Of a stretch of DNA of 64,000 nucleotides, positions 54,001 to 57,000 are shown piece by piece. The stretch is from positions 54,132,702 to 54,196,701 of the forward strand of contig JARDVH010000025.1 of NCBI GenBank assembly GCA_030324005.1, written 5' to 3'. This DNA is from Negaprion brevirostris. Its lineage: Eukaryota. Numbering within the stretch: position 1 is the stretch's first letter; the number at the start of each line of letters is the position of its first letter. Position numbers: made by a program.

Positions 54001-57000
54001 AAAGTTTCTATCAATTGCAGCACCAATCTGATTTCTGGCGGTACCAGTGGTGAAGGTCTGTGGTGGAGGTAAGTGGCTGAGTGCACCTGCATTCAATAGT
54101 TGCATCCCTGGACAATGCTGGAAAGAGTAACTGAATGCAGCTGACAATACTGCTCATCTTTGTACCCTCACAGAGGCAATTGGTGGTATGCATTAATTCT
54201 CTTGAAATAAACCCAACAATGACTCGTGATCTGATACTATTGTTACAATGTCTACCATTTATAATTAATATATAATCATACCATTTATATACCAGAAGCA
54301 TATGCCATAATTGCCCCCTGAAAATGGGAGCAGAGGTCATGATCTGAAATCGTGGAGCTTGTTGTGGAGTCTGGAAAACTGTGAATCTGAGGTTGAAGTG
54401 TTGTTCCTTGAAAAAATATCCAACTTCAGGGGAAAACTCTACGAGGCCAAGGACAGAGTGGTCAGAATGTGAATGGGATGGAGAATTAAAATGACAGGCA
54501 TCCAGAATTGTGCTTGTGGACGGAATGGAAATGTTTCACAAACCTGTCACCCAGTCAGCATTTGGCTCCTCCATGTAGAGTCAAGATCATGAGCAATAAT
54601 TACCATTTGCTAAATTGAAAGAAATACAAGTTAAGTACTGTGTCAGCTGTAAAATTAAGAAGTGCACTGCGTAACATAACTCATCAAGAGGATTCTATTT
54701 CATGAATACTTCTAAATATAGATTCTTCCTCTGATTTTCTCTTCCACTCCTTTGAGCTATATAATGCCATTAAGTGAGACAATCTTTGAATAGCATCATT
54801 TGATTTGCATTCCACATCTTACTCAGTTGATGTGTGCACAGCTTTGCATGTATATATTTTTTCTCTTCAGCTGTGACATTAACCTCATTCCCACTAACAA
54901 TCTAACAGCCGTGGAGGAGGCAGATTTGTAATAGAAACCAGAATAACTGGACTCAGTCCATCTTATTATTCTTATAGTGGAGCTTCCACAGCAGAACAAT
55001 GCTTTGAGACCTTTTGTTCTGGGATTGGGAGGAACTGCGTTTTCCTTCCAACTTTCAAAACTTCCATTACACCCTCATCAAAAAACATACCCATCCATCC
55101 TCTCCAACAATTTCCCTCTATTCAACTTTTTTTTCCTGATTCTGAGCCAATCATTCTTAAAATTCTGAACTTTTCCAATGTAATTTTTTAAAATTCTTTA
55201 TTCCAATTCAATCCAATCAAATCAAATCCAATTCAGAGTCCCAACAAGTTGAGCCATTCTCGATCCAAGCTGACAAGACAGGGCTCTCACCTCCTGTCTT
55301 GGGCTTGATCTACATGATCCAAGCTGATTGGANNNNNNNNNNNNNNNNNNNNNNNNNNNNNNNNNNNNNNNNNNNNNNNNNNNNNNNNNNNNNNNNNNNN
55401 NNNNNNNNNNNNNNNNNNNNNNNNNNNNNNNNATTCCCGATCCAAGCTGACAAGACAGGGCTCTCACCTCCTGTCTTGGGCTTGATCTACATGATCCAAG
55501 CTGATTGGGGTAGGTGTGGTTCCTCCTCCAAGGGTTGATCTTATTTGCATCTTAGCCAAAAGGCCGAGATGCTGCTTTAAATAGTTACTTCAAATGAAGC
55601 TGAAATGCAACCCAATGACTCCAACCAAGCACAGCACGTCAACACCACACCCGATCCCAGCCAAAAAGCCGAGCGTGAAAGATGTGCTGGTTAGGTGCAT
55701 TGACCCGAAATGGCACCGGACTGTGACGATTAGGGAATTTCACAATAACTTCATTGCAATGTTGATGTTATCTTACTTGTGACTAATAAATAAACTTTTA
55801 TTTTACTTTACTGTCATCAACTCCACAACTCTACCATTAATTCAATTCAATTGGCTCAGCCTATATCAAACAAAATATCTTATTCAAACAGTAGTGATCT
55901 TCGAACCTCATATCCCACTTTGCAGCACCAAGATCACTTATTTCCATTTCTGAAACATTGCTCAATGCACACGACCTCAGCATTTTTCACAATGCCCTTT
56001 CAACCATTGCCAGTGACTGTACTCAGTGTCCTCTGGTTCTCAATCCTTCAACCTTTGCAACAGTTTCTCCCTGCCAACTCTATCCAGATCTCTCATGATT
56101 TTGAACACCTCTATCAAAAATCCTCTCAATATTTTCCAAGAAGATTAGCCCTAGTTTCTCTAATCTGTCCACATAACTGAAGTTTCCCATCCCTGGAATC
56201 ATTCTTGTCAATCTTTTCTGCTTCTTCTCTAAATAGTGTCACCTAAAACTCCAGTTGAAGGTCAACCAGTGTTATACATAGGTTCATCCTTGCTTTCATG
56301 CCCCATTTATAATGCCCAGTATTCTGAATGTTTTATTAATTTTCTCAACTTGCCTTGCCAGCTTCAATGGTTTCTTCACATATAGTAACTCACTCAGAAC
56401 TTTGTCATAAATGATTGATGAGTTTGTTTGATTTACAAACATGCACAACAAGCCATTCAGCCCATTGTGTTCTGGAAATCACATTTCCTAGAATGGAATT
56501 CTGACCTTACATTTTGCTAGTTTGAATCAGTGGATCGCCATTTTCATTGCATTTCCTTGCCAATACTTCAAGCAGCAGTTCACAGAAAAGGCAGTGTGTT
56601 TGTATCGCTTGAACAGAACCAGTACATTATGTTAAACTATCAATTTGGTATTACATTTATGCTGAAATTAAGATATATTTAATGCAGTTTTGATTGGCTT
56701 TTGTATCAACAGCAAAATATTGTCAGAGATACCTTAGTGAGATGGGTACAGAAAATACTTTGTAGAAAAGAGTCCTTGAGTCTAGGACTCAAAGAGTCCC
56801 AGAAGAGAGTCCAAAAAAAGGACATTTTTTTCAAACATTTAATATCTTATGCATATTTATAAAGCTCCTTCTCAGCAGCCTTTTCTCATTGTGAAGAGCT
56901 GATGTTTGTCCACTTTTTTCTTTTAACCTAATTGTGTCACTGGGATCTCTTCCAGAGTTTGAATATTTTCCTGTTTCTCTGTGACAAAACCTGGACACAG

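What the first reader, a model, noticed from the sequence alone, without database searches (positions are those of the whole stretch)
55642..55673. U2-derived head with 6 of 7 adenosines changed to G
Seen: relative to U2 nt 8-39 there are 7 differences. Six are A>G (A23, A24, A29, A30, A35, A38) and one is C>T; only A26 is retained. The branch-site recognition sequence GUAGUA becomes GUGGUG, while the neighbouring head keeps A23 and A24. Established: clustered same-strand A>G is the signature of ADAR A-to-I editing fixed by reverse transcription. Inference: a fossilised hyper-edited U2 RNA, or selection to disable spliceosomal pairing or re-targeting by a U2-specific endonuclease.
Basis: partly seen in the sequence, partly recalled or inferred. 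Interest (0 to 1): 0.7.

Follow-up and report, generated by a model that had tools for sequence, protein, structure and literature searches.

The report
U2 snRNA fragment with A-to-G cluster
A short dead copy of the start of the U2 splicing RNA in a shark genome has almost all its adenines turned into guanines on one strand, which looks like a frozen trace of RNA editing but rests on a single copy.

Summary
On the minus strand, 55673->55642 reads as the 5' part of U2 snRNA (about nt 8-39). It has seven changes: six A>G (55658, 55657, 55652, 55651, 55646, 55643) and one C>T (55667). One A survives, at 55655. A second U2 piece 105 nt downstream (55569->55550) matches the Rfam U2 model at positions 7-26 exactly.

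The bias is not chance. Against the window's own substitution spectrum, P is about 6e-6. A>G at 6 of 7 sites against T>C at 0 of 11 gives P=3.8e-4, so the process was strand-specific.

The window comes from a shark, not a human. It is repeat-rich draft sequence and holds no true U2 gene.

ADAR-type editing of an RNA that was later reverse-transcribed is the best reading, at confidence about 0.45. The spared A is the only one with a 5' G. It remains unproven: there is one copy, no duplex partner and no clear retroposon boundaries. The selection readings are not supported.

No eukaryote genome collection was available, so family copies and the species' own U2 genes could not be checked.

The parts
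55642..55673 (-). U2-like piece (about nt 8-39) with six A>G changes and one C>T; only A26 (55655) is retained
   Evidence: Direct reading. It matches the neighbouring piece at 17 of 20 positions (D2). Rfam U2 does not score it. It still forms the stem-loop I hairpin at -9.2 kcal/mol.
55608..55641 (-). G/T-rich, A-poor stretch just 3' of the U2-like piece; TTGG-rich; holds CTGTGCTT at 55634->55627
   Evidence: Composition. It holds 3 TTGG in 34 nt against 0.0049 per nt in the window. CTGTGCTT matches 7 of 8 letters of the next U2 motif TCTGTTCTT from PMC4640811. Such near-matches are common: 322 in the window against 288 expected.
55573..55607 (-). A-rich spacer of unknown origin between the two U2 pieces
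   Evidence: Direct reading. No other copy in the window.
55549..55572 (-). Neighbouring U2 piece, unedited
   Evidence: Rfam U2 (RF00004) model positions 7-26 match 55569->55550 exactly: 19.5 bits, E 0.39 in a 2-kb search, gathering score 46. It folds as stem-loop I at -11.1 kcal/mol.
55535..55548 (-). Six inserted bases (GCAAAT), then a repeated AAGATCAA that carries the U2 match on to about nt 30
   Evidence: Direct reading. The numbering beyond the Rfam match is my inference.
55433..55508 (-). 76-nt block holding a 9-bp hairpin (CAAGACAGG / CCTGTCTTG); same as 55256-55331
   Evidence: the repeat finder D1, 75 of 76 identical. The hairpin is read directly.
55333..55432 (.). 100-N assembly gap, left unfilled
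   Evidence: The sequence ending at the gap recurs just after it, with 71 nt exact. This is probably an unmerged contig overlap, not a real tandem repeat.
55256..55331 (-). Second copy of the 76-nt block, probably the same DNA assembled twice
55198..55232 (-). (TTGGA)/(TTGAA)-like microsatellite, followed by AATAAA and an A-run on the minus strand; a possible 3' tail or target microsatellite
   Evidence: TRF finds period 5 with 6.2 copies at 55202-55232. Direct reading.
55676..55805 (+). 5'-truncated 3' part of an old shark SINE with a 35-column internal deletion, opposite in orientation to the U2 pieces and abutting the focal piece
   Evidence: BLAST matches to other copies in the window. Alignment A1. 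No T>C excess: one private change, G>A, in the counted columns.
55837..55851 (+). 15-nt direct repeat of 55198-55212 (13 of 15); the only candidate for a flanking duplication or a shared microsatellite target
   Evidence: the repeat finder D5. It is low-complexity, so it may be chance.

Best explanation
An RNA carrying the 5' part of U2 snRNA in sense orientation was deaminated at most of its adenosines by an ADAR-type enzyme while it was base-paired. A retrotransposon reverse transcriptase then copied it into DNA, which fixed inosine as G. The product is one of two U2-derived pieces in a short non-coding block of about 300 nt once the gap-flank duplicate is collapsed. The block lies on the minus strand and ends in a TTGGA-like microsatellite. 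It resembles the U2-headed retroposons (SINEU) of crocodilians.

**Shown:** the U2 ancestry, the seven changes, their strand specificity, and their fit to the ADAR neighbour rule.

**Inferred:** that the changes arose in RNA, that they arose in one burst, that the block is a retroposed unit, and that the focal piece was its 5' part.
For: 1. Six of the seven changes are A>G. P=6e-6 against the window's own spectrum.
2. A>G affects 6 of 7 A sites while the complementary T>C affects 0 of 11 T sites (P=3.8e-4). This excludes strand-symmetric processes such as GC-biased conversion.
3. None of the 6 changed A's has a G one base upstream, and the one spared A has. Three of the 6 have a G one base downstream. 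PMC4365171 reports G depleted upstream and enriched downstream of hyper-editing sites (passages read).
4. Three of the 4 A's left in the 68-nt A-poor island 55608-55675 follow a G, against 20.7% in the window.
5. The neighbouring U2 piece 105 nt away has 0 changes in 21 positions, against 7 in 32 here (Fisher P=0.034). The abutting SINE piece shows no such bias. The changes therefore look like a local burst, not decay in place.
6. U2 similarity stops at about nt 39. U2-targeting LINEs (Keno, Utopia) insert at nt 38/39 (PMC4640811 section 6). U2 heads on Tx1 LINEs and SINEU are in print (PMC4494074 Results and Discussion). A retroelement context for such a piece is therefore plausible.
7. ADARs are described as ubiquitous among metazoans (abstract of PMC5625713, seen in the listing).
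Against: 1. There is one copy only. No family member, unedited parent or true U2 gene is in the window.
2. No antisense partner that could form the needed duplex lies in the 64-kb window. A search with A and G collapsed found only the same-strand neighbour. The 69-nt island does not fold unusually well (z=-1.33).
3. Retroposon hallmarks are not established. There is no clean poly-A, and the only candidate flanking repeat is low-complexity (D5). No reverse-transcriptase ORF lies nearby.
4. The A-poor island beyond nt 39 needs no editing. It is TTGG-rich like the nearby microsatellite. Fifteen loci in the window have <=6 A in 68 nt, and 6 of them are SINE cores.
5. If the neighbouring piece is counted from nt 4, it has 1 change in 24 and the contrast with the focal piece is no longer significant (P=0.12).
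6. The neighbour-rule evidence rests on seven sites.
7. The reference for nt 27-39 is partly recalled.
Confidence: 0.45

Rival explanations
1. The G's are a lineage feature of an active U2-headed retroposon family. The master copy carried them, through drift or through selection such as avoiding U2-binding factors, branch-site pairing or re-cutting by a U2-specific endonuclease. Every family copy would then share them.
For: U2-headed families with diverged heads exist in crocodilians, and heads were added repeatedly (PMC4494074). Two heads in tandem occur here. Stem-loop I is kept through G.U pairs, as expected if the RNA structure mattered.
Against: - Selection does not explain why only A>G occurs, with 0 of 11 T>C.
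- A>G keeps wobble pairing with U, so it does not abolish pairing.
- The U2 sequence 3' of the nt 38/39 target site is absent or interrupted here anyway.
- No family copy could be examined.
- This reading is also compatible with an ancestral editing event in the master copy.
Confidence: 0.15
2. A DNA-level, strand-specific mutation cluster. One possibility is error-prone synthesis that favours A>G at A's preceded by A or T. Another is transcription-associated asymmetry acting on this short stretch.
For: Five of the 6 changed A's follow A or T, and the spared A follows G (direct reading). That context fits an error-prone polymerase motif about as well as the ADAR rule; the motif itself is my recall. 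The strand asymmetry requires only a one-strand process.
Against: Six changes within 16 nt, confined to the U2-derived piece, with none in the abutting SINE or the neighbouring U2 piece, would be an unusually tight germline cluster. I did not find or read any report of such clusters in germline DNA.
Confidence: 0.1
3. Deamination of the DNA strand of an RNA:DNA hybrid during reverse transcription of a plus-strand template. Here the SINE-sense RNA continues into antisense U2, so the first-strand cDNA, not the RNA, was edited.
For: The plus strand carries a SINE 3' part in sense orientation with its tail, directly joined to the antisense U2 piece. The minus strand would be the cDNA. That ADARs can act on the DNA strand of such hybrids is my recall.
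Against: The SINE part of the same presumed cDNA shows no A>G excess on the minus strand. No target-site duplication supports a plus-strand unit.
Confidence: 0.05
4. Ordinary neutral decay of an old U2 pseudogene fragment, or a chance resemblance to U2.
For: Rfam's U2 model does not score the focal piece. The pattern was picked after the fact. SINE copies in the window are about 13% diverged from their consensus, so several changes in 32 nt are expected for old DNA.
Against: P=6e-6 for the A>G share given the local spectrum. The piece matches a bona fide U2 piece 105 nt away on the same strand at 17 of 20 positions. All 13 positions from nt 27 to 39 agree once A and G are treated alike (direct reading). 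G>A and C>T dominate the local spectrum yet account for 1 of the 7 changes here.
Confidence: 0.04

Closest known systems
SINEU (SINEU-1/2/3): crocodilian SINEs with U1- or U2-derived heads (Kojima 2015, PMC4494074; Results and Discussion read)
   Same: Short U2 5' pieces sit at or near the 5' side of a short non-coding unit. More than one snRNA-derived piece lies in tandem, and there are partial duplications inside the piece, as with the AAGAT repeat in the neighbour. A link to Tx1-type LINEs is plausible.
   Different: SINEU was reported only from crocodilians, with poly-A tails and thousands of copies. Here the host is a shark, the possible tail is a TTGGA-like microsatellite, only one copy is visible, and the outer piece carries an A>G cluster that the paper does not describe.
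5' junction of the U2-targeting LINEs Keno (Tx1 clade) and Utopia (PMC4640811; section 6 and passages read)
   Same: The U2 similarity of the focal piece stops at about nt 39. Both LINE lineages insert at that point: the upstream fragment is nt 1-38 and the downstream flank starts at nt 39.
   Different: No LINE body, RT ORF or U2 3' part follows. A 7-of-8 match to the next U2 motif lies 7 nt further on. The apparent end may therefore be a small insertion, not a junction.
ADAR hyper-edited RNA clusters (Porath et al. 2014, PMC4365171; passages read)
   Same: Dense same-strand A>G: 6 of the 7 mismatches, at 6 of 32 bases. G is avoided one base upstream and frequent one base downstream.
   Different: Those clusters are differences between RNA and DNA within long duplexes, mostly inverted repeats. 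This one is fixed in DNA, only about 16-30 nt long, and has no visible partner.
snRNA retropseudogenes and template-switch chimeras (U6/U2 joined to L1, Alu or mRNA), as summarised in PMC4494074 Discussion
   Same: A truncated snRNA copy lies next to a SINE fragment.
   Different: In those chimeras the snRNA and the 3' partner share one orientation. Here the SINE piece is antisense to the U2 piece.

Membership tests
U2 spliceosomal RNA gene (Rfam RF00004) | Score at or above the family gathering score (46 bits) over the full model, including the Sm site and 3' stem-loops | tested here: not met
   There were 0 matches at gathering in the window. The neighbouring piece scores 19.5 bits over model positions 7-26 only. 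The focal piece gives no U2 match at E<=10 in a 101-nt search.
U2 spliceosomal RNA gene (Rfam RF00004) | Intact branch-site recognition motif GUAGUA | tested here: not met
   The focal piece reads GTGGTG at 55648->55643.
SINEU (snRNA-headed SINE) | 5' region derived from U1 or U2 snRNA | tested here: inconclusive
   Two U2-derived pieces are present. Whether either one is the 5' end of a mobile unit cannot be fixed, because the focal piece abuts an antisense SINE fragment.
SINEU (snRNA-headed SINE) | Multi-copy family sharing a 3' body | not testable with these tools
   No other copy in the 64-kb window. No eukaryote genome collection was available.
SINEU (snRNA-headed SINE) | 3' poly-A tail and occasional target-site duplications of about 10 bp | tested here: inconclusive
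   There is a TTGGA-like microsatellite, then AATAAA and an A6 run, but no clean poly-A. The one candidate flanking repeat matches 13 of 15 and is low-complexity (D5).
Keno/Utopia insertion in a U2 gene | U2 nt 1-38 upstream, a LINE with RT, then U2 from nt 39 downstream | tested here: not met
   The upstream-type piece ends near nt 39. No RT domain appears among the ORF pieces of this region: Pfam gave RT hits only at 4412-4663 and 36007-36300 among 127 pieces. No U2 3' part is present.
ADAR hyper-editing cluster | Dense same-strand A>G making up most of the mismatches | tested here: met
   Six of 7 changes are A>G. T>C is 0 of 11.
ADAR hyper-editing cluster | G depleted one base upstream of edited sites | tested here: met
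   None of the 6 changed sites has an upstream G, and the spared A has one. Three of the 4 remaining A's in the island follow G. The numbers are small.
ADAR hyper-editing cluster | Long duplex partner (antisense match nearby) | tested here: not met
   A search with A and G collapsed against both strands of the window found no antisense match among the 25 best hits printed, the weakest at E=0.21. The source locus of the edited RNA, if there was one, lies elsewhere.
ADAR hyper-editing cluster | Difference between the RNA and its own DNA template (an unedited parent exists) | not testable with these tools
   This needs the source genome or RNA-seq data.

The most novel reading that the evidence does not exclude
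Sharks carry a family of U2-headed retroposons, a class so far reported only from crocodilians. The family would be mobilised by a Tx1/Keno-like LINE that reads through from U2 genes or targets TTGGA-type microsatellites. Its RNA intermediates would be hyper-edited by ADAR before integration. The genome would then keep a dated record of RNA editing acting on, and perhaps restraining, retroposons in an early-branching vertebrate.
Probability: 0.15. Interest if true: 0.6.

Novelty: new member of a known kind. Interest (0 to 1): 0.35.

Why it matters
If the G's were written by ADAR into an RNA that was then reverse-transcribed, this locus is a genomic fossil of RNA editing in a cartilaginous fish. 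It would also hint that snRNA-headed retroposons exist outside crocodilians. Together these would allow two counts across a whole shark genome: how often edited RNAs are retroposed, and whether editing marks or disables particular retroposon families. As it stands, this is one decayed copy in a draft assembly. It is a pointer for a genome-wide survey, not a result in itself.

Tried and rejected
- **Rfam at gathering and at E<=10 over the whole window.** No U2 gene and no other U2 piece.
- **Rfam on 101 nt around the focal piece.** No U2 match, so I have no tool-made alignment of the focal piece to U2.
- **20-mer of the neighbouring piece with <=3 mismatches.** It found only itself.
- **Self-BLAST of 54800-56400 and a search with A and G collapsed.** No family copy, no unedited parent and no antisense partner.
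- **RNA folds of 377 nt and of the 69-nt island.** No long duplex involves the focal piece.
- **The A-poor island as evidence that editing runs past nt 39.** I weakened this myself. A-poor windows are not rare, and that part is TTGG-rich.
- **Continuation of U2 after a 7-nt insertion.** The 7-of-8 match to TCTGTTCTT is weak, with 322 near-matches against 288 expected. By recall the similarity might run gapped to about nt 60. I did not test this, because it would need a U2 sequence that no tool supplied.
- **Template-switch chimera of U2 and SINE.** Rejected, because the two parts are in opposite orientation.
- **The real tandem 76-nt repeat.** Probably an assembly artefact.
- **ORF and Pfam scan of 127 pieces, ARAGORN.** Nothing bears on the locus.
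- **Protein search with the DDE piece.** No hit.
- **Paper searches.** SINEU as a whole word gave 23 papers, none on sharks. 'U2 snRNA' with SINE and shark gave 5 papers, none relevant by title or abstract. A 25-mer of the window's SINE gave 0 papers. Two searches for ADAR-edited retrocopies fixed in genomes turned up no paper that, by title or abstract, reports such fossils. I recall such reports but did not see them.
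Full report
**What the window is.**
- It is draft sequence with 17 N runs and no upper/lower-case masking.
- It is repeat-rich and gene-poor. Of 127 ORF pieces of 75 aa or more, Pfam (E <= 0.01) recognised only three as transposon domains. Two are reverse-transcriptase fragments (4412-4663 +, 36007-36300 -). One is a Harbinger-type DDE_Tnp_4 fragment (48961-49284 -). Two further pieces had only weak sub-threshold matches to unrelated domains.
- A LINE-like ORF piece (53260-53544 +) matched 9 proteins at E<=0.001. All four hits that carry an organism name come from the sharks Heptranchias perlo and Heterodontus francisci; the hits overall are 65-86% identical.
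- I therefore take the contig for elasmobranch, not human.
- At least 11 fragments of one old SINE family lie in the window.

**The observation.**
- The minus strand of 55642-55673 reads CTCGGCTTTTTGGCTGGGATCGGGTGTGGTGT.
- A bona fide U2 piece lies 105 nt downstream on the same strand. The Rfam U2 model positions 7-26 match 55569->55550 letter for letter (19.5 bits).
- The repeat finder pairs the two pieces at 17 of 20 positions (D2).
- I used three references: the Rfam consensus for nt 7-26, the neighbour's own letters for nt 23-30, and the motif TGTAGTATCTG from PMC4640811 for about nt 32-42. The position of that motif is my recall, anchored on the paper's nt 38/39 statement.
- The focal piece differs by C14>T and by A>G at nt 23, 24, 29, 30, 35 and 38. 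A26 is kept.
- Two caveats apply. Rfam's U2 model does not score the focal piece even in a 101-nt search. No true U2 gene of this species is in the window.

**Is it more than chance?**
- I took 149 substitutions from 11 SINE fragments of the window as a local spectrum. G>A and C>T dominate it, and A>G is 6%.
- With the inferred ancestral composition, the expected A>G share is 0.099. P(>=6 of 7) is then 6e-6.
- A simple hypergeometric test gives 5.2e-5.
- The complementary change is absent: A>G at 6 of 7 sites against T>C at 0 of 11 (P=3.8e-4).
- The process was therefore strand-specific. That excludes GC-biased conversion and ordinary symmetric decay.
- These P values are after the fact and should be read as about ten-fold weaker.

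**Anatomy of the locus, reading the minus strand.**
1. 55805->55676: the antisense of a 5'-truncated SINE 3' part.
2. 55673->55642: the focal U2-like piece.
3. 55641->55608: a TTGG-rich, A-poor stretch.
4. 55607->55573: an A-rich spacer.
5. 55572->55549: the unedited U2 piece. A 6-base insert and a repeated AAGATCAA follow it, down to 55535.
6. A 76-nt block with a 9-bp hairpin.
7. 55232->55198: a TTGGA-like microsatellite, with AATAAA and a short A-run after it.

Further points on the anatomy:
- The 76-nt block appears twice, on either side of the 100-N gap at 55333-55432. In 4 of the 9 100-N gaps of this window, the letters ending at the gap recur right after it (28, 27, 17 and 71 nt exact).
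- The 'tandem repeat' is therefore probably an unmerged contig overlap.
- Unit ends cannot be fixed. The only candidate flanking repeat (55198-55212 and 55837-55851, 13 of 15) is low-complexity (D5).

**Mechanism.** The best reading is ADAR-type editing of an RNA that carried U2 in sense orientation, followed by reverse transcription.

Points for it:
- The changes are strand-specific.
- The neighbour rule fits. None of the 6 changed A's has a G one base upstream, the one spared A does, and 3 of 6 have a G one base downstream. The motif is as described in PMC4365171.
- Three of the 4 A's left in the island 55608-55675 follow a G, against 20.7% in the window.
- The neighbouring piece has 0 changes in 21 positions, against 7 in 32 here (P=0.034).
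- The abutting SINE is unaffected.
- U2 similarity ends at about nt 39, the insertion point of Keno and Utopia. U2 heads are known on Tx1 LINEs and on SINEU. A retroelement origin for a U2 5' piece is therefore plausible.

Points against it:
- There is one copy only.
- No antisense partner lies in the window, and no unusual fold was found.
- No retroposon hallmarks are secure.
- The contrast with the neighbour falls to P=0.12 if that piece is counted from nt 4 with one mismatch.
- The A-poor island is the only 68-nt window with A<=5 and G>=28 among 117,908. That is not strong evidence: 15 loci have A<=6, and the part past nt 39 is simply TTGG-rich.
- Whether U2 similarity really stops at nt 39 is open. 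A 7-of-8 match to the next U2 motif lies 7 nt further on, but such near-matches are common.

- Selection to disable pairing does not fit. A>G keeps G.U wobble with U, stem-loop I still folds (-9.2 against -11.1 kcal/mol), and selection would not yield a single substitution type.
- Escape from a U2-specific endonuclease is unnecessary. The sequence 3' of the nt 38/39 site is already missing or interrupted.

**Comparison with what is known.**
- The locus works like a SINEU-type unit combined with a hyper-editing fossil, but membership of SINEU cannot be claimed.
- A multi-copy family could not be tested, the tail is not poly-A, and the 5' end is not fixed.
- It is not a U2 gene, and it is not a Keno/Utopia insertion.
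- In the held paper library, SINEU as a whole word gave 23 papers, none on sharks. 'U2 snRNA' with SINE and shark gave 5 papers, none relevant by title or abstract.
- I recall reports of ADAR-edited retrocopies fixed in genomes. My searches did not surface them, and I read none.

**What stayed unchecked.**
- Family copies, the species' own U2 genes and orthologous loci. No eukaryote genome collection was available.
They are irrelevant here.
- Paper supplements were not consulted. The junction figures of PMC4640811 and the head alignments of PMC4494074 could refine the numbering.

**Verdict.**
- This is a single decayed copy, a new member of known kinds, of moderate-to-low interest unless a genome-wide survey shows a family.

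Noticed in passing
window 957-1056, 5742-5841, 8542-8641, 55333-55432: In 4 of the 9 100-N gaps, the letters that end at the gap recur immediately after it (28, 27, 17 and 71 nt exact). These look like unmerged overlapping contig ends, so the apparent duplications there are probably assembly artefacts.
   Followed up: partly
window 115-178, 5007-5124, 14646-14766, 15752-15923, 26245-26378, 33856-33960, 37575-37860, 44761-44886, 45421-45602, 55676-55805, 60259-60560: At least 11 fragments of one old SINE family, 70-85% identical to the copy at 37575 and with an A-poor core. ARAGORN and Rfam call no tRNA in them. By recall it resembles elasmobranch tRNA-derived SINEs.
   Followed up: partly
window 55675-55703 and 55962-55990: A 29-nt inverted match, 72% complementary, between the SINE piece beside the focal U2 piece and a second, antisense SINE-like fragment 258 nt away (I1). 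It could give a short duplex in a transcript. It does not cover the U2 piece.
   Followed up: no
window 55535-55549: The unedited U2 piece is interrupted after nt 27 by GCAAAT. The letters AAGAT are then repeated before the match runs on to about nt 30. This is a small internal duplication of the kind described inside SINEU heads.
   Followed up: no
window 55447-55474 (and 55270-55297): A perfect 9-bp inverted repeat, CAAGACAGG / CCTGTCTTG, with a 10-nt loop inside the 76-nt block. The block is bounded by a 12-nt direct repeat, GATCCAAGCTGA.
   Followed up: no
window 48961-49284 (-): A Harbinger-type transposase fragment (Pfam DDE_Tnp_4, E 1.7e-8). A search among longer proteins found no relative.
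   Followed up: partly
window 53244-53900 (+): A LINE-like ORF fragment interrupted by a 100-N gap. It is 65-80% identical to uncharacterised proteins of Heptranchias perlo, and it is also embedded in shark gene models annotated as aldo-keto reductase and storkhead-box protein. Those annotations probably contain transposon sequence.
   Followed up: no
window 24166-24233 (+): A G-run-rich stretch (39 G in 68 nt) directly after a 20-N gap.
   Followed up: no
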